Source of the DNA: a virus
Taxonomy: Duplodnaviria > Heunggongvirae > Uroviricota > Caudoviricetes
DNA: 46,106 nucleotides
IMG/VR virus record: IMGVR_UViG_2563366942_000012
Reading direction: 5' to 3' (one strand)
Shown: positions 15,448 to 35,526 of the stretch, piece after piece
Layout of the letters: each line of letters starts with the position of its first letter
Position numbering within the stretch: the first letter of the stretch is position 1
Notes under the pieces: generated by a model
Seen by the model: only the letters and a program-made list of their open reading frames with translations
Databases searched by the model: none
Told to the model about the DNA's origin: nothing
Translations under genes and position numbers: made by a program

Positions 15448-15523
15448 CGGCCCTTTAGCTCAGTGGTGAGAGCGAGCGACTCATAATCGCCAGGTCGCTG
15501 GTTCAAATCCAGCAAGGGCCACC
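15448..15523 (+). tRNA. tRNA with CAU anticodon, ileX-like (tRNA-Ile2, lysidine) rather than tRNA-Met
   Basis: 76 nt cloverleaf: acceptor GGCCCTT/AAGGGCC, anticodon loop CUCAUAA, T-loop TTCAAAT, 3' CCA; close to my recollection of E. coli ileX. Confidence 0.8.
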
Positions 15524-15530
15524 ATCACAT

Positions 15531-15607
15531 ACCGCCATTAGCTCATCAGGAAAGAGCGCCAGCTTTCGAAGCTGGTTGCGCGGAGTTCGGGTCCCCGAAG
15601 GCGGTCC
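15531..15607 (+). tRNA. tRNA-Arg-like (UCG anticodon), with non-canonical features
   Basis: 77 nt cloverleaf with anticodon loop UUUCGAA and 3' CCA, but one mismatch each in acceptor and T stems and an unusual T-loop TTCGGGT; middle tRNA of the Stx-phage-style ile-arg-arg trio. Confidence 0.55.
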
Positions 15608-15620
15608 ATTATCTGTATCC

Positions 15621-15697
15621 TGCGTTGTTAGCTCAGCCGGACAGAGCAATTGCCTTCTAAGCAATCGGTCACTGGTTCGAATCCAGTACAACGCGCC
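15621..15697 (+). tRNA. tRNA-Arg (UCU anticodon)
   Basis: 77 nt; acceptor GCGTTGT/ACAACGC, anticodon loop CUUCUAA, T-loop TTCGAAT, 3' CCA. Confidence 0.85.
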
Positions 15698-15710
15698 ACA
15701 CTTATTTTCC

Positions 15711-16672: not shown

Positions 16673-18526
16673 ATGGCATTTAAACACTATGACGTGGTCA
16701 GGGCGGCATCGCCGTCAGACCTTGCGAAACGACTGACACAAAAACTGAAGGAGGGCTGGCAGCCGTTTGGTAGTCCGGTGGCCATAACCCCTTATACCCT
16801 GATGCAGGCGATTGCAGCAGAAGGTGATGTGGTCGTCAGTGGTGCAACTGAGCCGGAGTGGTACTACGTCATCGTACTGGCCGGGCAATCCAATGCCATG
16901 GCTTACGGTGAAGGGCTTCCGCTTCCGGATTCATACGATGCGCCCCATCCGCGCATTAAGCAACTGGCCCGTCGTAACACAGTGACTCCCGGTGGTGAAG
17001 TATGCGTATTTAACGACATCATTCCTGCTGACCATTGTCTGCATGATGTTCAGGATATGAGTACGATTAACCATCCCCGGGCTGACCTGAGCAAAGGGCA
17101 GTACGGCTGTGTCGGACAGGGCTTACATATTGCCAAAAAACTGCTTCCGTATATCCCTAATAATGCGGGGATCCTGCTGGTACCATGCTGTCGTGGTGGT
17201 TCGGCATTCACCCAGGGCACGGAGGGGACATTCAGCGAGTCCACGGGAGCCAGTCAGGATTCGGCTCGCTGGGGAGTGGGTAAGCCGTTATATCAGGATC
17301 TGCTTTTCCGCACGAAGGCAGCATTGCAGAAAAACCCGAAAAACGTTTTGCTGGCGATATGCTGGATGCAGGGGGAATTCGATATGACGAATGCCAGTTA
17401 CGCCCAGCAGCCAGCAGCATTTCTTGCAATGGTACAGCAGTTCCGTGCTGACCTTGCCGGGCTGGCGGCGCAGTGTCACGGTGGAAGTCCGGCATCAGTC
17501 CCCTGGATTTGTGGCGACACGACATACGCGTGGAAACAAGAACACGGTACGCAATATGAAGTGGTATATGGTGCATATAAAGGTAAAGAATCCCAGCAGA
17601 TTTATTTTGTTCCCTTTATGACCGATGGTAGCGGAGTTAATACACCGACAAACAACCCGTCAGAAGATCCTGATATTGCCGGGTCTGGTTATTACGGTTC
17701 GGCATCCCGAACGAACAAAAACTGGGTATCATCAAATCGCCCGACGCATTTCAGCTCATGGGCGCGTCGTGGCATTATTCCCGATCGTATGGCAACTGCT
17801 ATTCTGAACGTAGCCGGTCGCACCTTAGCCTTCATTAGTGGTAAGGCACCGGAAATCAAACCCTCGCCCGGCGGCGACACGCCATCGGGGCCGTCTGAAG
17901 ATGCATCCATACGCACAATCTCCCTGTTGCCGACAGCCGGAGACGCTGCTGCGCAGGGCTGGAGCATTAAGAATGGCGGAATTCAGTTGTCAGATGGTGT
18001 ATTTAAGATCACCAAGCAGAGCAATAAAGCCTGGTCCCTGACGCGCCCGGTGGATGACGCAGTCTCCCTGCTGACACGGGGTGGCAGACTGAGCTGTAAG
18101 TTTCGACTGTCAGGCGCACTGACCAACAACCAGTTCGGTCTGGGAATTTATCTGTATACCGATGTAGCGTTACCTGACGTCGTGGCGATGACCGGGACTG
18201 GTAACCCGTTCCTGATGTCGTTCTTCACCCAGACCACAGACGGCAAACTGAATCTGATGCATCACAAGAAAGCAGGAAACACAAAGTTGGGCGAGTTCGG
18301 GAATTACAGTAACGACTGGCAGACGCTGGAGCTGGTGTTCACCGCCGGCAGTGCCACGGTTACTCCGAAACTGAATGGAGTGGCTGGCCCGGCATTCCAG
18401 GTCATAAAAGACAGTCTGACACTGGGGCTGAATGCGCTGACGCTGACGGATATTACCAAAAATGCAGCGTATGGCGTTGAGATAGAAAGTCTGGTGCTGG
18501 AGATAAATGCACCGGCATCATCATAA
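16673..18526 (+). CDS. nanS-p: NanS-p-type sialate O-acetylesterase (SGNH/SASA domain)
   Basis: 617 aa; N-terminal MAFKHYDVVRA segment, esterase motif VIVLAGQSNAMAYGE; lies between the tRNA region and the holin as in Stx phages; GGGAGGA Shine-Dalgarno. Confidence 0.8.
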   Translation: MAFKHYDVVRAASPSDLAKRLTQKLKEGWQPFGSPVAITPYTLMQAIAAEGDVVVSGATEPEWYYVIVLAGQSNAMAYGEGLPLPDSYDAPHPRIKQLARRNTVTPGGEVCVFNDIIPADHCLHDVQDMSTINHPRADLSKGQYGCVGQGLHIAKKLLPYIPNNAGILLVPCCRGGSAFTQGTEGTFSESTGASQDSARWGVGKPLYQDLLFRTKAALQKNPKNVLLAICWMQGEFDMTNASYAQQPAAFLAMVQQFRADLAGLAAQCHGGSPASVPWICGDTTYAWKQEHGTQYEVVYGAYKGKESQQIYFVPFMTDGSGVNTPTNNPSEDPDIAGSGYYGSASRTNKNWVSSNRPTHFSSWARRGIIPDRMATAILNVAGRTLAFISGKAPEIKPSPGGDTPSGPSEDASIRTISLLPTAGDAAAQGWSIKNGGIQLSDGVFKITKQSNKAWSLTRPVDDAVSLLTRGGRLSCKFRLSGALTNNQFGLGIYLYTDVALPDVVAMTGTGNPFLMSFFTQTTDGKLNLMHHKKAGNTKLGEFGNYSNDWQTLELVFTAGSATVTPKLNGVAGPAFQVIKDSLTLGLNALTLTDITKNAAYGVEIESLVLEINAPASS

Positions 18527-18676
18527 AAAGTGAGCCAGCCAAATGGAAGGTATCGTTAAACTCACCGGTAGTGTCAGTGGGTCGTCTGAGATGCCTGCAT
18601 GAGTTATCAGAGCCATCAGTACTTAACTGGTGGCTTTTTTTATTGTTGTCAGCTTCCGGATAACGGGAGACGGGGT

Positions 18677-18892
18677 ATGTACCAGATGGAAAAAATCACA
18701 ACAGGTGTGTCATACACCACGTCAGCGGTGGGAACGGGCTACTGGTTCCTGCAGTTGCTGGACAGGGTTTCCCCGTCTCAGTGGGCGGCAATAGGCGTGC
18801 TGGGGAGTCTGCTGTTTGGGCTGCTGACATATCTGACTAACCTGTATTTCAAAATCAGAGAGGACCGTCGTAAGGCTGCACGGGGAGAGTAA
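18677..18892 (+). CDS. S: Holin, phage-21 S-type (pinholin-like)
   Basis: 71 aa [71 protein letters not shown]; two transmembrane segments; GGGAGA Shine-Dalgarno. Confidence 0.85.
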
Positions 18893-18896
18893 TTCA

Positions 18897-19241
18897 ATGA
18901 CTCAAAACTATGAACTGATTGTGAAAGGGATCCGCAATTTTGAGAATAAAGTTACGGTAACTTTAGCGTTACGGGACAAAAAACGCTTTGACGGTGAAAT
19001 TTTTGACCTGGACATCTCGCTGGACCGTGTTGAAGGTGCCTCGCTGGAGTTTTATGAGGCAGCAGCCAGAAGGAGCATCAGACAGGTCTTCCTGGATGTT
19101 GCTGCCGGGTTATGTGAAGGGGATGAGCAGTCGCCGGAAAAGCGCCCCGTAATTTTAGAGGCGCAGGATGTGTTGATAACCTACAGAGGAAAACTACCGG
19201 GAATAATTACGGGTTCTCTGAAGAGTCCGCCGAAATGGTAA
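18897..19241 (+). CDS. Protein of unknown function inserted between holin and endolysin (YdfR-like by position)
   Basis: 114 aa ORF starting 5 nt after the holin stop; soluble, no recognised motif. Confidence 0.5.
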   Translation: MTQNYELIVKGIRNFENKVTVTLALRDKKRFDGEIFDLDISLDRVEGASLEFYEAAARRSIRQVFLDVAAGLCEGDEQSPEKRPVILEAQDVLITYRGKLPGIITGSLKSPPKW

Positions 19242-19479
19242 TTTTACCAGCATATTTTTCATCCAGTAATACAGCAAGCCGCCTGAAAGAGTCTTGTTGT
19301 TCCTGAGACCATTTGGGATTGCATGATTCAAACTGGATTGATGCCAGCGTTGATTGCATCTGTTCCCTTGGAATTGAGAATGCCAGATATGAGAAGGCGA
19401 CGGTAAGGGTATTCACGTCTTCCCGAAGCCTGGAAATGCTGTCGAGCAACTCCTGTAGAGAAATGGTGTTATTGTCCAT
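19207..19479 (-). CDS. Hypothetical antisense-oriented ORF between holin and endolysin
   Basis: 90 aa ORF convergent with 18897..19241 (35 bp 3' overlap); AGGA Shine-Dalgarno 7 nt upstream of ATG; no homology recognised. Confidence 0.3.
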   Translation of the reverse strand: MDNNTISLQELLDSISRLREDVNTLTVAFSYLAFSIPREQMQSTLASIQFESCNPKWSQEQQDSFRRLAVLLDEKYAGKITISADSSENP

Positions 19480-19584
19480 AAATAATCCTCATGATTGTAT
19501 TGACCTGTTAGCAGCCTGAGGCAACAGGCTGGAACTGATAAACATATCTAGGGCTCAGAAACCGATAAATCCTGATAAATATCC

Positions 19585-20118
19585 ATGAACGCAAAAATCA
19601 GATACGGCCTGTCGGCTGCCGTTCTGGCGCTGATTGCCGCTGGTGCGCCTGCGCCTGACATTCTCGACCAGTTTCTGGATGAAAAGGAAGGTAACCACAC
19701 CACGGCATACCGTGATGGCGCGGGTATCTGGACCATCTGCCGCGGTGCCATCCTGGTGGATGGCAAACCTGTCGTTCCGGGCATGAAGTTGTCGAAGGAA
19801 AAATGCGACCGGGTTAACGCCATTGAGCGTGATAAGGCGCTGGCATGGGTGGAGAAAAACATCAGAGTGCCATTGAGTGAACCCCAGAAAGCGGGGATCG
19901 CGTCATTCTGTCCGTACAACATTGGTCCCGGTAAGTGTTTCCCGTCGACGTTTTATAAACGAATTAATGCAGGTGATCGCAGGGGAGCGTGTGAGGCGAT
20001 TCGCTGGTGGATTAAGGACGGTGGCAGAGACTGCCGTGTCCGCTCAAATAACTGTTATGGTCAGGTATCCCGTCGTGACCAGGAGAGCGCGCTGGCGTGC
20101 TGGGGAATCGACAGATAA
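19585..20118 (+). CDS. R: SAR endolysin (lysozyme R, T4-lysozyme-like fold)
   Basis: 177 aa; N-terminal signal-arrest-release hydrophobic segment LSAAVLALIAAGAPA, catalytic E/D/T region EKEGNHTTAYRDGAGIWTICRG; closely resembles remembered RrrQ-type lysozymes. Confidence 0.85.
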   Translation: MNAKIRYGLSAAVLALIAAGAPAPDILDQFLDEKEGNHTTAYRDGAGIWTICRGAILVDGKPVVPGMKLSKEKCDRVNAIERDKALAWVEKNIRVPLSEPQKAGIASFCPYNIGPGKCFPSTFYKRINAGDRRGACEAIRWWIKDGGRDCRVRSNNCYGQVSRRDQESALACWGIDR

Positions 20119-20277
20119 GCAGAATATTTTGCTGAAAAATAAGGTATGGCCACGCGGGCGGATAACACGAAATCCTGCGAACTGGCGAAACGTAAGTGAA
20201 TAAAAGTAAAAACCCCGTTTGTTGGCACCAAGCGGGGTTTTGTGTTTCCTGACTCCGGAAAAGTCAAAGGAGAAAGT

Positions 20278-20415
20278 GTGTTTGATTTTAGCAAACTGAT
20301 TCGGGAGATTCGAGTGATGGCTGAAAAATTATCCACCTGGAAGTTCATTCTTATCTGGCTGGTGTTTGTGATTATGGCCTCCGGTTATTTCATCGGTCAG
20401 ATACGCTGGTGGTGA
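20278..20415 (+). CDS. Candidate small membrane peptide between R and Rz
   Basis: 45 codons from GTG (AAGGAG 5 nt upstream) or 32 from internal ATG; one hydrophobic helix ([19 protein letters not shown]); stop is 1 nt before the Rz start codon. Below the ORF-track length cut-off; read directly from the sequence. Confidence 0.35.
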
Positions 20416-20416
20416 A

Positions 20417-20884
20417 ATGAACCGCGTACTGTGCGTGGTCATCATTGCCCTGCTGGTGGCCTGTGGTGCGCTTAGTCTGGGGCTGAATCATTACCGTGAT
20501 AACGCCATTACCTACAAAGCCCAGCGCGACAAAAATGTCAGAGAACTGAAGCTGGCGAACGCGGCAATTACTGACATGCAGATGCGTCAGCGTGATGTTG
20601 CTGCGCTCGATGCAAAATACACGAAGGAGTTAGCTGATGCGAAAGCTGAAAATGAAACTCTTCGCGCTGACGTTGCCGCTGGTCGTAAGCGCCTGCGTAT
20701 CAACGCCACCTGTCCAGGTCCCGTGCGTGAAGCCACCGGCACCGCCCGCGTGGATAATGCAACCGGCCCCCAACTGGCAGACACCGTTACACGGGATTAT
20801 TTCACCCTCAGAGAGCGGCTGATGACGATGCAGAAGCAACTGGAAGGGGCGCAGGAATATATCCGTACTCAGTGCCTGAAATAA
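20417..20884 (+). CDS. Rz: Spanin, inner-membrane subunit Rz
   Basis: 155 aa; N-terminal transmembrane segment, coiled-coil periplasmic domain; Rz1 embedded in +1 frame. Confidence 0.85.
20637..20822 (+). CDS. Rz1: Spanin, outer-membrane lipoprotein subunit Rz1
   Basis: 61 aa embedded in Rz in a different frame; signal peptide with lipobox LVVSAC and proline-rich mature region. Confidence 0.8.
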
Positions 20885-32658: not shown

Positions 32659-35200
32659 TCTTGTTATTGACCTTAGTCTGGATGCTGTCCGTTTCGATGA
32701 GCAGATGAGCCGGGTAAGGCGTCATTTTTCAGGTCTGGATACCGACGCCAGAAAAACCGCCAGTGCTGTTGAACAGGGCCTGAGCCGCCAGGCGCTGGCT
32801 GCACAAAAAGCCGGGATTTCCGTCGGGCAGTATAAAGCGGCCATGCGAACCCTGCCCGCACAGTTTACGGATATCGCCACGCAGCTTGCCGGTGGTCAGA
32901 ATCCCTGGCTGATCCTGCTGCAACAGGGCGGTCAGGTGAAGGACTCCTTCGGCGGGATGATCCCCATGTTCAGGGGGCTTGCCGGTGCGATCACCCTGCC
33001 GATGGTCGGGGTCACCTCGCTGGCGGTGGCGACAGGTGCGCTGGTGTACGCCTGGTACCAGGGAGATTCCACGCTTTCAGCGTTTAATAAAACCCTGGTT
33101 CTTTCCGGTAATCAGTCCGGACTGACTGCCGATCGCATGCTGACGCTCTCCAGAGCCGGACAGGCCGCAGGGCTGACGTTTAACCAGGCGAGTGAGTCAC
33201 TGGCAGCCATGGTGAATGCCGGTGTGCGTGGTGGTGAACAGTTTGATGCCATCAACCAGAGTGTCGCGCGTTTTGCTTCTGCATCCGGTGTGGAGGTGGA
33301 CAAGGTTGCAGAGGCTTTCGGAAAACTGACCACTGACCCGACGTCGGGGCTGATTGCGATGGCGAAGCAGTTCCATAACGTGACGGCGGAGCAGATTGCG
33401 TATGTTGCTCAGTTGCAGCGTTCCGGCGATGAAGCCGGGGCATTGCAGGCGGCGAACGAGGCCGCAACGAAAGGGTTTGATGACCAGACCCGCCGCCTGA
33501 AAGAGAACATGGGCACGCTGGAGACCAGGGCAGACAGGACTGCGCGGGCATTCAAATCCATGTGGGATGCGGTGCTGGATATTGGTCGTCCTGATACCGC
33601 GCAGGAGATGCTGATTAAGGCAGAGGCTGCGTTTAAGAAAGCAGACGACATCTGGAATCTGCGCAAGGATGATTATTTTGTTAACGATGAAGCGCGGGCG
33701 CGTTACTGGGATGATCGTGAAAAGGCCCGTCTTGCGCTTGAAGCCGCCCGAAAGAAGGCTGAGCAGCAGACTCAACAGGACAAAAATGCGCAGCAGCAGA
33801 GCGATACCGAAGCGTCACGGCTGAAATATACCGAAGAGGCGCAGAAGGCTTACGAACGGCTGCAGACGCCGCTGGAGAAATATACCGCCCGTCAGGAAGA
33901 ACTGAACAAGGCACTGAAAGACGGGAAAATCCTGCAGGCGGATTACAACACGCTGATGGCGGCGGCGAAAAAGGATTATGAAGCGACGCTGAAAAAGCCG
34001 AAACAGTCCGGCGTGAAGGTGTCTGCGGGCGATCGTCAGGAGGACAGTGCTCATGCTGCCCTGCTGACGCTTCAGGCAGAACTCCGGACGCTGGAGAAGC
34101 ATGCCGGAGCGAATGAGAAAATCAGCCAGCAGCGCCGGGATTTGTGGAAGGCAGAAAGTCAGTTCGCGGTACTGGAGGAGACGGCACAACGTCGCCAGCT
34201 GTCCGCACAGGAGAAATCCCTGCTGGCGCATAAAGATGAGACGCTGGAGTACAAACGCCAGCTGGCTGCACTTGGCGACAAGGTTACGTATCAGGAGCGC
34301 CTGAACGCGCTGGCGCAGCAGGCGGATAAATTCGCACAGCAGCAACGGGCAAAACGGGCCGCCATTGATGCAAAAAACCGGGGGCTGACTGACCGGCAGG
34401 CAGCGCGGGAAGCCACGGAACAGCGCCTGAAGGAACAGTATGGCGATAATCCTCTGGCGCTGAATAACGTCATGTCAGAGCAGAAAAAGACCTGGGCGGC
34501 TGAAGACCAGCTTCGCGGGAGCTGGATGGCAGGCCTGAAGTCCGGCTGGAGTGAGTGGGAAGAGAGCGCCACGGACAGTATGTCGCAGGTAAAAAGTGCA
34601 GCCACGCAGACCTTTGATGGTATTGCACAGAATATGGCGGCGATGCTGACCGGCAGTGAGCAGAACTGGCGCAGCTTCACCCGTTCCGTGCTGTCCATGA
34701 TGACAGAAATTCTGCTTAAGCAGGCAATGGTGGGGATTGTCGGGAGTATCGGCAGCGCTATTGGCGGGGCTGTTGGTGGCGGCGCATCCGCGTCAGGCGG
34801 TACAGCCATTCAGGCAGCTGCGGCGAAATTCCATTTTGCAACCGGAGGATTTACGGGAACCGGCGGCAAATATGAGCCAGCGGGGATTGTTCACCGTGGT
34901 GAATTTGTCTTCACGAAGGAGGCGACCAGCCGGATTGGTGTCGGCAACCTGTATCGTCTGATGCGCGGGTATGCGGAAGGTGGTTATGTCGGCGGTGCCG
35001 GAAGTCCGGCGCAGATGCGGCGGGCGGAAGGTATCCGGTTTGAGCAGAACAACAGCGTGGTGATTCAGAACGACGGTATCAACGGACAGGCCGGGCCGCA
35101 GCTGATGAAAGCGGTGTATGAGATGGCCCGTAAAGGTGCGCAGGATGAGATTCAGGCGCAGATGCGTGATGGTGGCCTGTTCTCCGGAGGTGGACGATGA
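32639..35200 (+). CDS. H: Tail tape measure protein gpH
   Basis: 853 aa, same length as lambda H; Ala/Gln-rich coiled-coil; glycine-rich hydrophobic C-terminal region. Confidence 0.9.
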   Translation: MSQPVGDLVIDLSLDAVRFDEQMSRVRRHFSGLDTDARKTASAVEQGLSRQALAAQKAGISVGQYKAAMRTLPAQFTDIATQLAGGQNPWLILLQQGGQVKDSFGGMIPMFRGLAGAITLPMVGVTSLAVATGALVYAWYQGDSTLSAFNKTLVLSGNQSGLTADRMLTLSRAGQAAGLTFNQASESLAAMVNAGVRGGEQFDAINQSVARFASASGVEVDKVAEAFGKLTTDPTSGLIAMAKQFHNVTAEQIAYVAQLQRSGDEAGALQAANEAATKGFDDQTRRLKENMGTLETRADRTARAFKSMWDAVLDIGRPDTAQEMLIKAEAAFKKADDIWNLRKDDYFVNDEARARYWDDREKARLALEAARKKAEQQTQQDKNAQQQSDTEASRLKYTEEAQKAYERLQTPLEKYTARQEELNKALKDGKILQADYNTLMAAAKKDYEATLKKPKQSGVKVSAGDRQEDSAHAALLTLQAELRTLEKHAGANEKISQQRRDLWKAESQFAVLEETAQRRQLSAQEKSLLAHKDETLEYKRQLAALGDKVTYQERLNALAQQADKFAQQQRAKRAAIDAKNRGLTDRQAAREATEQRLKEQYGDNPLALNNVMSEQKKTWAAEDQLRGSWMAGLKSGWSEWEESATDSMSQVKSAATQTFDGIAQNMAAMLTGSEQNWRSFTRSVLSMMTEILLKQAMVGIVGSIGSAIGGAVGGGASASGGTAIQAAAAKFHFATGGFTGTGGKYEPAGIVHRGEFVFTKEATSRIGVGNLYRLMRGYAEGGYVGGAGSPAQMRRAEGIRFEQNNSVVIQNDGINGQAGPQLMKAVYEMARKGAQDEIQAQMRDGGLFSGGGR

Positions 35201-35526
35201 AAACCTTCCGCTGGAAAGTGAAACCCGGTATGGATGTGGCTTCGGCCCCTTCCGTAAGAAAGGTGCGCTTTGGTGATGGCTATTCTCAGCGAGCGCCTGC
35301 CGGGCTGAATGCCGACCTGAAAACGTACAGCGTGACGCTTTCTGTCCCCCGTGAGGAGGCCACGGTACTGGAGTTGTTTCTGGAAGAGCACGGGGGCTGG
35401 AAAGCCTTTCTGTGGACGCCGCCTTATGAGTGGCGGCAGATAAAGGTGACCTGCGCAAAATGGTCGTCGCGGGTCAGTATGCTGCGTGTTGAGTTCAGCG
35501 CAGAATTTGAACAGGTGGTGAACTGA
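35197..35526 (+). CDS. M: Minor tail protein gpM
   Basis: 109 aa at the lambda M position. Confidence 0.85.
   Translation: MKTFRWKVKPGMDVASAPSVRKVRFGDGYSQRAPAGLNADLKTYSVTLSVPREEATVLELFLEEHGGWKAFLWTPPYEWRQIKVTCAKWSSRVSMLRVEFSAEFEQVVN

What the first reader, a model, noticed from the sequence alone, without database searches (positions are those of the whole stretch)
18893..19584. Insert between holin and endolysin: an unknown-function gene plus a convergent antisense ORF
The holin stop is followed 5 nt later by a 114 aa soluble protein of unknown function; by position it resembles the ydfR-type gene some lambdoid prophages carry between S and R. A 90 aa ORF on the opposite strand (19207..19479), with a plausible ribosome-binding site and a perfect 7 bp hairpin (19513..19532) near its 5' end, fills the rest of the gap. 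An antisense gene inside a late lysis operon is unusual; it could be a moron expressed in the lysogen or a regulator of lysis timing.
Basis: partly seen in the sequence, partly recalled or inferred. Interest (0 to 1): 0.45.

Follow-up and report, generated by a model that had tools for sequence, protein, structure and literature searches.

The report
Backward accessory gene in prophage lysis cassette
Between the holin and endolysin genes of this E. coli prophage lie a known-family gene (ydfR) and a real but uncharacterised 90-residue gene on the opposite strand; the second is an optional add-on found in about a fifth of complete E. coli genomes and is not needed for lysis.

Summary
Window 18897-19241(+) encodes a DUF1327/YdfR protein (Pfam E 1.7e-42) that starts 4 nt after an S21-type holin. 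Window 19207-19479(-) is a genuine 90-aa gene. It stays open in 8 of 8 diverged alleles, has dN/dS of 0.1-0.4, keeps its AGGA ribosome-binding site, and belongs to a gapless family of 81-97-aa proteins. It matches PHROG 2411 but no Pfam, NCBIfam, PADLOC or structural relative.

Against phage 640R1, window 19237-19530 is a discrete 294-nt insertion, so the gene is dispensable for lysis. It occurs in 1116 of 5426 complete E. coli genomes. At least three unrelated backward ORFs occupy the same slot in other prophages.

Remote relatives also lie backward in other late-operon positions: between tail genes M and L, after Rz, and upstream of a lambda-type holin. So this is a moron-type accessory gene, not a lysis-timing regulator. 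The 7-bp hairpin exists but is no better than chance, and no clear promoter or terminator was found.

One lead remains. In four phage contexts the backward gene converges on, and overlaps, a forward ORF that ends in a shared motif (…I.G(K/N)…(I/L)(T/F)G(S/D)(L/I)..P…). This hints at a two-gene module. Function is unknown.

The parts
18677..18892 (+). S21-type class II holin (context; upstream neighbour)
   Evidence: Pfam PF04971 E 9e-33 and PHROG holin families. RefSeq names it 'class II holin family protein'.
18897..19241 (+). ydfR-family gene (DUF1327), 114 aa, part of the late lysis operon. GGAGAG lies just before the holin stop codon.
   Evidence: Pfam PF07041 E 1.7e-42, phrog_406 E 7.6e-68. 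RefSeq WP_016235607.1 'YdfR family protein'. 80% identical to Qin YdfR over aa 1-74.
18897..19118 (+). YdfR N-terminal domain (aa 1-74): three strands and a long helix. This is the conserved core shared with K-12 Qin YdfR.
   Evidence: AF2 gives strands 5-14, 18-27, 36-43 and helix 50-73, pLDDT 60-84. The BLASTP alignment with Qin YdfR ends at residue 74. In Qin YdfR the RNase E-binding surface maps to residues 1-72 (PMC13232886).
19149..19241 (+). YdfR C-terminal tail (aa 85-114, ...ITYRGKLPGIITGSLKSPPKW*), a predicted flexible beta-hairpin. It carries the motif shared with forward partners of the backward gene in other contexts.
   Evidence: AF2 pLDDT <50 with strands 92-97 and 105-109. The motif is found only in YdfR proteins and the partners among 3567 ORFs. 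It is conserved at the amino-acid level, not the nucleotide level.
19207..19479 (-). 90-aa backward gene: acidic (pI 4.5, 10.2 kDa), predicted three-helix protein, PHROG 2411, RefSeq WP_000369850.1 'hypothetical protein'.
   Evidence: phrog_2411 E 1.1e-58 over 90/90 positions. 62 homologues. dN/dS 0.1-0.4 with the frame open in 8 of 8 alleles. Remote family members found. AF2 helices 8-35, 38-52, 59-77, pLDDT 70.8. Physical properties.
19207..19241 (.). 35-nt tail-to-tail overlap of the two convergent genes
   Evidence: Coordinates. The backward protein's tail (aa 79-90) is predicted disordered. Overlaps of 7-20 nt occur in the other contexts.
19237..19530 (.). DNA present here but replaced by about 21 nt in phage vB_EcoS-640R1. 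This is the insertion (moron cassette) that carries the backward gene, its ribosome-binding site and about 50 nt upstream.
   Evidence: Alignment of the window with 640R1 and with E. ruysiae. Junctions read directly. GC 44% against 53-55% in holin, R and Rz.
19486..19490 (-). Ribosome-binding site GAGGA, 6 nt before the ATG at 19479
   Evidence: Sequence. An AGGA core is kept in most alleles, including the Citrobacter one; one allele has CAGGC.
19512..19531 (.). 7-bp inverted repeat (CAGCCTG-N6-CAGGCTG) in the presumed 5' leader of the backward gene; no demonstrated role
   Evidence: Predicted in both strands' folds, but z = -0.03 and -0.86. Stem mismatched or changed in alleles L008, L090, L092 and L080.
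19541..19569 (-). Candidate weak sigma-70 promoter for the backward gene: TTTATC (19569-19564), 17-nt spacer, TATGTT (19546-19541). Inferred only.
   Evidence: Read. Both hexamers are invariant in all E. coli-type alleles. The ORF-less 640R1 has CAGGTT in place of TATGTT. The consensus scan did not report it.
19585..20118 (+). Endolysin with a hydrophobic N-terminal segment suggesting a SAR type, R21-like (context; downstream neighbour)
   Evidence: Pfam PF00959 E 1.2e-23. N-terminal MNAKIRYGLSAAVLALIAAGA. The SAR assignment is my inference from the sequence.

Best explanation
The interval holds two real genes of different standing.

**1. ydfR (18897-19241, +).** It belongs to the late lysis transcript and starts 4 nt after the holin stop. 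It has a conserved N-terminal domain, which in K-12 Qin YdfR binds the catalytic half of RNase E, and a flexible C-terminal tail.

**2. The 90-aa backward gene (19207-19479, -).** It arrived as a discrete 294-nt insertion at the ydfR stop codon. It encodes a small, acidic, soluble, three-helix protein of an unnamed family.

**Shown**
- It is protein-coding and under purifying selection.
- It is dispensable for the S21/R21 lysis cassette.
- The ydfR-R junction is a hot spot that holds either nothing or one of at least four unrelated backward ORFs.
- Relatives of this protein sit backward in other late-operon positions.

**Inferred**
- It is a moron, an independently transcribed accessory gene.
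- Its orientation shields it from Q-antiterminated late transcription. It would be made from its own weak promoter (candidate TTTATC-17-TATGTT, 19569-19541) while the prophage is repressed. After induction, convergent late transcription and the resulting antisense RNA would silence it.
- The product most likely acts by binding another protein rather than as an enzyme, membrane protein or DNA binder. The best candidate partner is the conserved C-terminal hairpin of the forward gene it always converges on, which here is YdfR.
- It is not a component or timer of lysis.

The confidence of 0.55 is for the whole package. The shown parts alone I would rate at about 0.85.
For: **Coding**
- 62 homologues, almost all 90 aa, down to 58% identity.
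- dN/dS of 0.1-0.4. The frame is open in 8 of 8 alleles, whereas the ambiguous antisense frame has stops in 6 of 8.
- A profile search of 1.84 billion representatives finds 81-97-aa relatives that align without gaps over the helical core.
- AF2 predicts a three-helix model at pLDDT 70.8.

**Insertion and dispensability**
- The flanks are near-identical to phage 640R1, which lacks 19237-19530.
- Several phage records carry S-ydfR-R with no backward ORF.
- GC is 44% against 53-55% in the core lysis genes.

**Hot spot**
- Backward ORFs of 86, 91 and 104 aa occupy the same slot.
- They are unrelated by hhalign, E 0.1-0.7.
- They occur in 314, 45 and 90 genomes, against 1116 for this ORF.

**Not lysis-specific**
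- One homologue sits between tail genes M and L, facing backward. In this window M and L appear to have no gene between them: the tape-measure ORF ends at 35200 and L starts at 35526.
- Another lies after Rz and before the terminase genes.
- The Citrobacter one lies upstream of a lambda-S-type holin and a CHAP endolysin.
- Two others lie in non-phage-looking DNA.

**Soluble and acidic.** pI 4.5, GRAVY -0.43.

**Candidate promoter.** The hexamers are invariant among alleles whose synonymous divergence is 0.2-0.8, and the -10 is absent from the ORF-less allele. The Citrobacter allele has GGGACA-17-TATTAT 32 nt upstream of its ATG.
Against: - There is no expression data of any kind.
- The consensus promoter scan found nothing upstream of the gene on the minus strand. 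My candidate matches only 7 of 12 positions.
- No terminator follows the gene, so it lacks the full promoter-gene-terminator anatomy of a textbook moron.
- There was no match in PADLOC, Pfam, NCBIfam, PDB sequences, or Foldseek against PDB or BFVD. The molecular activity is therefore pure inference.
- The gene is in only 3 of 50,697 phage records although it is common in chromosomes. It could be concentrated in defective prophages.
Confidence: 0.55

Rival explanations
1. **Two-gene convergent module with an internal interaction.** The forward ORF's conserved C-terminal hairpin, made late in the lytic cycle, binds and neutralises the backward three-helix protein, made in the lysogen, or the reverse. 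This would resemble a prophage defence or exclusion factor with built-in self-immunity, or an addiction module. In E. coli the forward half is fused to, or is the tail of, YdfR.
For: - In four independent phage contexts the backward gene converges on, and overlaps by 7-35 nt, a forward ORF ending in ...I.G(K/N)...(I/L)(T/F)G(S/D)(L/I)..P...*. These are the window YdfR, the Citrobacter 238-aa protein, a 71-aa ORF between tail genes M and L, and a 63-aa ORF after Rz.
- Between M and L, both ORFs are extra DNA.
- The motif, defined after seeing these sequences, hits only YdfR proteins and these partners among 3567 ORFs, against 0.06 expected.
- YdfR-profile searches rank the partners as the best non-family hits: E 0.04-0.2 for the Citrobacter-type partners (L087, L006) and about 4 for the tail-operon partner; the post-Rz 63-aa partner was not returned.
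- Conservation is at the amino-acid level, not the nucleotide level.
- AF2 leaves the tail as a low-confidence hairpin detached from the N-domain.
Against: - Pairwise similarity of the partners is not significant: phmmer E > 1, hhalign E 0.09.
- The motif test is post hoc.
- ydfR with the same tail exists without the backward gene in 640R1. K-12 Qin ydfR, whose C-terminus differs, also lacks a backward gene.
- The backward gene persists where the YdfR N-domain is deleted (L089/L090).
- Two family members have no motif-bearing partner.
- No complex prediction could be run.
Confidence: 0.25
2. **Antisense or transcriptional-interference control of lysis.** With no terminator behind it, the minus-strand transcript runs into ydfR and the holin gene. 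It acts as an antisense RNA or a polymerase roadblock that damps leaky holin expression or sets lysis timing. Under this view the protein is secondary.
For: - No intrinsic terminator lies on the minus strand between 19207 and the holin gene; there is only a weak 5-bp site inside the holin at 18718-18704.
- The 3' ends overlap by 35 nt.
- All four kinds of ORF in this slot face backward.
Against: - The protein sequence is conserved across contexts in which the downstream antisense target differs: a tail gene, a post-Rz ORF, an ATPase.
- In Citrobacter the gene points away from the holin.
- Near-identical cassettes work without it in isolated phages.
- The purifying selection is on codons.
Confidence: 0.08
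3. **Annotation artefact.** The open minus frame is a by-product of sequence conserved for another reason, such as an extension of ydfR or the plus-strand 68-aa ORF at 19313-19519.
For: - The antisense frame that shares third codon positions shows the same low dN/dS (0.24).
- In E. ruysiae that frame is open for 110 codons.
Against: - That frame carries stops in 6 of 8 alleles, while the minus ORF is open in all.
- The ATG and ribosome-binding site are conserved.
- Remote homologues at 24-45% identity, from unrelated DNA contexts, align gap-free over the helical core.
- AF2 gives a compact helical fold.
Confidence: 0.03

Closest known systems
YdfR of the E. coli K-12 Qin prophage (Pfam DUF1327, PF07041)
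   Same: It has the same position, directly after an S21-type holin and before the lysozyme gene. It is 80% identical over residues 1-74, and the Pfam match is far above threshold. Qin YdfR binds the N-terminal catalytic half of RNase E through residues 1-72 and co-purifies with RNA (PMC13232886).
   Different: The C-terminus diverges after residue 74. Qin YdfR is 103 aa with a predicted helix; here the protein is 114 aa with a predicted hairpin tail. Qin has no backward gene, and there ydfR overlaps rrrQ directly.
Lambdoid morons, e.g. lambda bor (backward gene next to Rz) and lom; concept of Juhala et al. 2000 as cited in PMC4104026
   Same: It is extra DNA between genes that are adjacent in a related phage. 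Its GC content differs from its neighbours. It lies in the late region and is oriented so that late transcription does not express it. The region downstream of pR' is a recognised moron site (PMC4104026). The bor and lom details are from my own knowledge.
   Different: No recognisable promoter-terminator pair was found. The product is a cytoplasmic acidic helical protein, not an outer-membrane lipoprotein or porin-like protein. It overlaps its neighbour's 3' end rather than sitting in an intergenic gap.
PHROG 2411 / RefSeq WP_000369850.1 'hypothetical protein'
   Same: Full-length HMM match, E 1.1e-58 over 90/90 positions. Identical protein in APEC O18.
   Different: Nothing differs; this is the same gene. 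The family has no assigned function, no Pfam entry and no literature.
Prophage defence genes with built-in self-immunity (sieB/esc, BstA/aba); from my own knowledge, not tested here
   Same: The logic would be the same only if the two-gene reading is right: a lysogen-phase factor paired with a lytic-phase antidote encoded at the same locus.
   Different: There is no sequence or structural similarity, no PADLOC hit, no phenotype data, and a different gene arrangement (convergent and overlapping).
Type I toxin-antitoxin pairs with convergent, 3'-overlapping transcripts (e.g. txpA/RatA); from my own knowledge
   Same: Convergent units whose 3' ends overlap by tens of nucleotides.
   Different: Both partners here are soluble proteins of 63-238 and 81-97 aa. 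There is no small hydrophobic toxin. The conserved feature is protein sequence, not RNA.

Membership tests
DUF1327 / YdfR family (plus-strand gene) | Match to Pfam PF07041 above the gathering score | tested here: met
   144 bits against a cut-off of 25, E 1.7e-42, residues 1-111.
DUF1327 / YdfR family (plus-strand gene) | Position between a class II (S21-type) holin and the lysozyme in a lambdoid lysis cassette | tested here: met
   The order is the same in Qin.
DUF1327 / YdfR family (plus-strand gene) | Binding to the RNase E N-terminal domain, as reported for Qin YdfR | not testable with these tools
   Only inferred from 80% identity over the mapped region 1-72.
PHROG 2411 (backward gene) | Full-length match to the family HMM | tested here: met
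   E 1.1e-58, residues 1-90 on profile positions 1-90.
Moron (independent accessory transcription unit in a phage late region) | Present between two genes that are adjacent in a closely related phage | tested here: met
   19237-19530 is replaced by about 21 nt in 640R1, with near-identical flanks.
Moron (independent accessory transcription unit in a phage late region) | Nucleotide composition different from its neighbours | tested here: met
   GC is 0.444 against 0.53-0.55 for holin, R and Rz. However, ydfR itself is 0.475.
Moron (independent accessory transcription unit in a phage late region) | Own promoter | tested here: inconclusive
   No consensus hit. The candidate TTTATC-17-TATGTT is conserved among alleles and absent from the ORF-less allele. 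The Citrobacter allele has a 9/12 site.
Moron (independent accessory transcription unit in a phage late region) | Own terminator | tested here: not met
   No intrinsic terminator lies on the minus strand after 19207. The gene ends inside ydfR.
Moron (independent accessory transcription unit in a phage late region) | Expressed from the repressed prophage | not testable with these tools
   Needs RNA-seq or a reporter assay.
Lysis regulator (antiholin or endolysin inhibitor) | Membrane segment or holin-like domain, and constant association with a given holin/endolysin type | tested here: not met
   No hydrophobic span; GRAVY -0.43. Relatives occur with a lambda-S holin and CHAP endolysin, in a tail operon, and outside phages. 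It is absent from otherwise identical cassettes.
Known anti-phage defence proteins (PADLOC-DB) | HMM match to a catalogued defence protein | tested here: not met
   No hit at E <= 0.1 for the backward gene, YdfR or their counterparts.
Type I toxin-antitoxin | Small hydrophobic toxin peptide plus an antisense RNA | tested here: not met
   Both products are soluble. No Rfam family matched in 18300-20500.

The most novel reading that the evidence does not exclude
The backward gene and the C-terminal hairpin of the forward gene it converges on may form a previously unrecognised mobile two-gene module. The module would insert at different points of temperate-phage late operons: after the holin, before the holin, after Rz, and between tail genes M and L. 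One half would be expressed in the lysogen and the other in the lytic cycle, and the two would interact. This could be a defence or exclusion factor with a late-expressed antidote. The ydfR-R junction of E. coli lambdoid prophages would then be a hot spot for several analogous convergent modules (ORFs of 86, 91 and 104 aa paired with C-terminal extensions of YdfR).
Probability: 0.25. Interest if true: 0.65.

Novelty: new member of a known kind. Interest (0 to 1): 0.35.

Why it matters
In itself this is ordinary prophage mosaicism. It is a small hypothetical gene, already annotated by RefSeq and PHROGs, sitting backward in a late operon.

It matters modestly for three reasons.

- **Prevalence.** It is in about 21% of complete E. 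coli genomes, in two old allele groups, yet nobody has studied it.
- **A defined hot spot.** The ydfR-endolysin junction emerges as an insertion site carrying at least four unrelated backward genes. Hot spots of this kind in other phages have turned out to hold defence and counter-defence genes.
- **A testable hypothesis.** The recurrent convergent pairing with a motif-bearing forward ORF suggests a specific protein-protein interaction. Because YdfR has just been linked to RNase E, that interaction could connect a lysogen-expressed protein to control of RNA decay during phage development.

Tried and rejected
**Searches for a function that found nothing**
- Foldseek of the 90-aa model against PDB and BFVD: best E 2.1 and 0.45, all generic helical hits.
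- Foldseek of the YdfR model against PDB: nothing below E 0.17, and the model is low-confidence.
- PDB sequence searches: nothing.
- Pfam and NCBIfam on 13 family members: only scattered single hits at E > 0.01.
- PADLOC: nothing.
- Rfam on 18300-20500: nothing meaningful.

**Remote-homology tests**
- hhalign between the four kinds of backward ORF: no homology.
- Link between the Citrobacter 238-aa partner and DUF1327: only E 0.09-0.11. Its own homologue search gave two proteins without Pfam. Membership remains suggestive only.

**Coding test.** dN/dS alone could not separate the ORF frame from the antisense frame that shares third positions. Stop-codon integrity and remote homologues were needed.

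**Context searches**
- The IMG/VR scan with the broader alignment returned only E. coli-type loci.
- The metagenome scan found no relative.
- tblastn of remote members against phage records found only the three E. coli phages.

**Literature.** Searches for the protein accession, the PHROG id and the locus tag found nothing. A search for backward genes in holin-endolysin cassettes gave nothing relevant.

**Rejected ideas**
- The hairpin as a terminator: there is no U-run on either strand.
- TACAAT at 19499-19494 as the -10: it would need a 19-nt spacer and would start the mRNA inside the ribosome-binding site.
Full report
**Setting.** The window is a lambdoid prophage of E. coli. The finding's 692 nt are 100% identical to APEC O18, whose matching prophage lies next to ompW. 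Around the finding the order is:

- SASA/NanS-type esterase, 16673-18526
- S21-type class II holin, 18677-18892
- 114-aa ORF, 18897-19241 (+)
- 90-aa ORF, 19207-19479 (-)
- lysozyme with a hydrophobic N-terminal segment suggesting a SAR endolysin, 19585-20118
- a 298-nt spacer
- Rz with embedded Rz1, 20417-20884

- The holin stop is followed 4 nt later by the 114-aa ORF.
- The 90-aa minus ORF has GAGGA 6 nt upstream of its ATG.
- Two details need correcting. The ORFs overlap tail-to-tail by 35 nt. The 7-bp inverted repeat is at 19512-19518 / 19525-19531.
- The repeat folds as predicted, but the region is no more stable than shuffled sequence (z = -0.03 and -0.86).
- The stem is mismatched or altered in several alleles. 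I give it no functional weight.

**The plus-strand gene.**

- It is a DUF1327/YdfR family member (Pfam E 1.7e-42; phrog_406 E 7.6e-68).
- It is 80% identical to K-12 Qin YdfR over residues 1-74, after which the two diverge.
- A 2026 paper reports that Qin YdfR binds the N-terminal catalytic half of RNase E through its first 72 residues and co-purifies with RNA (PMC13232886). This is the only functional information on the family.
- AF2 gives an N-domain of three strands and a long helix (aa 4-73, pLDDT 60-84). The tail (aa 71-114) is low-confidence and has a predicted hairpin at 92-97 / 105-109.
- Family members come in several length classes (104, 114, 116, 161, 176, 183, 211 and 268 aa) that share the core and differ downstream.

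**The minus-strand gene is real.**

- A search of 5.8 billion proteins found 62 homologues. Nearly all are 90 aa, and identity goes down to 58% (Citrobacter).
- On DNA from eight diverged alleles, Nei-Gojobori dN/dS is 0.1-0.4, and 45-49 of about 85-95 differences fall at third positions in the most distant pairs.
- The antisense frame whose third positions coincide gives the same dN/dS, so that statistic alone does not decide the matter.
- What decides it is frame integrity. The minus ORF is open in all eight alleles. The rival frame has stops in six of them.
- The ATG is conserved, and an AGGA core of the ribosome-binding site is kept in most alleles, even in Citrobacter.
- A profile search of 1.84 billion representatives found remote relatives of 81-97 aa. 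They align without gaps over the helical core and share a motif (L..I..L+..VN.L..AFSYLAF.IP...M..T.A.L.FES.N).
- AF2 predicts three helices (8-35, 38-52, 59-77; pLDDT 70.8) and a disordered tail, which is the part that overlaps ydfR.
- The protein is acidic (pI 4.5) and soluble.

**It is an optional insertion.** I aligned the window with phage vB_EcoS-640R1.

- The flanks are almost identical up to 19236 and again from about 19531.
- The 294 nt in between are replaced by about 21 nt in 640R1.
- Several phage records have S-ydfR-R with nothing in between.
- The lysis cassette therefore works without the gene.
- The insertion has 44% GC, against 53-55% for holin, R and Rz.

**The slot is a hot spot.** Other prophages carry a different backward ORF at the same junction.

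| YdfR form | Backward ORF | Tail overlap | Complete E. coli genomes (of 5426) |
|---|---|---|---|
| 114 aa (this window) | 90 aa, phrog_2411 | 35 nt | 1116 |
| 176, 183 or 211 aa | 86 aa, phrog_2572 | 53 nt | 314 |
| 161 aa | 91 aa | 68 nt | 45 |
| 268 aa (Stx2 phage 86; also E. coli O104:H4 genomes) | 104 aa, phrog_1853 | none | 90 |

- Some form of ydfR is present in 4305 genomes.
- The four backward ORFs show no detectable homology to each other (hhalign E 0.1-0.7).
- The 90-aa ORF's genomes split into two allele groups: 532 at 99% or more, and 580 at 80-90%.
- Only 3 of 50,697 phage records carry the 90-aa ORF (783R2, Chlobot, phiSTEC1575-Stx2k).
- All copies are annotated 'hypothetical protein'. 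No paper mentions the accession.

**Where relatives sit.**

- **Citrobacter:** the ORF converges on a 238-aa protein and lies upstream of a lambda-S-type holin, a CHAP endolysin and Rz.
- **P0186:** it lies backward between lambda-like tail genes M and L, together with a 71-aa forward ORF. In this window no ORF of 120 aa or more lies between the tape-measure ORF (end 35200) and L (start 35526).
- **P0185:** it lies backward after Rz and before the terminase genes, converging on a 63-aa forward ORF.
- **Two others:** they lie in DNA that does not look phage-like.
- **One E. coli context:** the YdfR N-domain is deleted, yet the backward ORF remains.

The family is therefore not tied to a holin or endolysin type. 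This argues against a lysis-timing role and for an autonomous accessory gene that is repeatedly placed against the direction of late transcription.

**A lead: a possible two-gene module.** In four phage contexts the forward ORF that the gene overlaps ends in a similar peptide:

- window YdfR: ...ITYRGKLPGIITGSLKSPPKW*
- Citrobacter: ...KIEGKIRNEKITGSLRVPMKL*
- tail-operon ORF: ...FSIKGNIFSDQIFGDLKKPPSY*
- post-Rz ORF...VIKGGQLRYKRLTGDILIPLES*

The evidence for this lead is as follows.

- A motif written after seeing these sequences matches only YdfR proteins and these partners among 3567 stop-to-stop ORFs, against 0.06 expected by shuffling.
- YdfR profiles rank the partners as the best non-family hits, at E 0.04-0.2 for the Citrobacter-type partners (L087, L006) and about 4 for the tail-operon partner. 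The post-Rz 63-aa partner was not returned.
- The conservation is in amino acids, not nucleotides.

The evidence against it is as follows.

- Pairwise similarity is not significant.
- The motif test is post hoc.
- The same tail exists without the backward gene, and the gene exists without such a partner.

I therefore rate the module reading at about 0.25.

**Transcription signals.**

- The consensus scan finds no promoter for the minus gene and no terminator behind it.
- By eye, TTTATC (19569-19564), a 17-nt spacer and TATGTT (19546-19541) is a weak candidate promoter.
- It is invariant across E. coli-type alleles, and the ORF-less 640R1 has CAGGTT in place of the -10.
- The Citrobacter allele has a 9/12 site 32 nt upstream of its ATG.
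- A strong terminator-like hairpin with T-runs on both strands at 20209-20241 would stop minus-strand transcripts coming from downstream. Any promoter should therefore lie between 20209 and 19480.
- All of this is inference.

**Function.** No similarity to anything characterised was found in any of these searches:

- Pfam, NCBIfam and PADLOC
- PDB sequence search
- Foldseek against PDB and BFVD
- Rfam

My commitment is this. The gene is a moron-type accessory gene, made when the late operon is silent, and it acts by protein binding. Lysis regulation is unlikely.

**Verdict.** The feature is a common, already-annotated but unstudied backward accessory gene in a recombination hot spot. That makes it a new member of a known kind, with a moderately interesting lead on a convergent two-gene module.

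Noticed in passing
window 18609-18637 (+), in the 150-nt gap between the esterase (end 18526) and the holin (start 18677): A strong intrinsic-terminator-like hairpin (12 pairs followed by a T-run) lies just upstream of the holin. In related prophages the esterase-holin gap holds the PasA/PasC small RNAs (bioRxiv 10.64898/2026.05.13.724894). A small-RNA gene may end here. Rfam gave no significant hit.
   Followed up: partly
window 20119-20416, hairpin at 20209-20241: A 298-nt spacer splits the endolysin from Rz. It contains a 13-pair terminator-like hairpin with T-runs on both strands. In relatives the same position holds an antirepressor (Stx2 phage 86) or a ParDE toxin-antitoxin pair (L089/L090), or R and Rz overlap directly (640R1, Qin). 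This is a second insertion slot inside the lysis cassette.
   Followed up: partly
window 15449-15698 (+): There are three tRNA genes (anticodons CAT, TCG and TCT) between the DNA methyltransferase and the esterase, downstream of Q. RefSeq calls the CAT one tRNA-Ile in APEC O18, whereas ARAGORN calls it Met.
   Followed up: no
L094, L096, L004, L098, L003 (ydfR-R junction in other E. coli prophages): Longer YdfR forms (161-268 aa) carry coiled-coil-like C-terminal extensions that overlap the 3' end of unrelated backward ORFs (86, 91 and 104 aa). The 211-aa form looks like a mosaic of the 161-aa and 176-aa extensions. I did not test whether these extensions are functional or just read-through into inserted DNA.
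   Followed up: partly
P0061 ('ybl58', E. coli), corresponding to window 19207-19479: One database protein named ybl58 matches the 90-aa protein at both ends, but its middle follows another reading frame of the same DNA. That implies two compensating frameshifts (or sequencing errors) in that copy.
   Followed up: no
L103 4001-4294 and L177 821-1084: Remote family members occur outside recognisable prophages. One converges on a heavy-metal P-type ATPase next to a MerR regulator. The other lies beside a polytopic membrane protein and converges on an 85-aa coiled-coil ORF.
   Followed up: no
window 19548-19922 (-) and 19313-19519 (+): Two long ORFs lie antisense to real genes: 124 aa inside the endolysin gene and 68 aa opposite the 90-aa gene. 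They are frame artefacts. The second shares third codon positions with the real gene and so mimics its dN/dS.
   Followed up: yes
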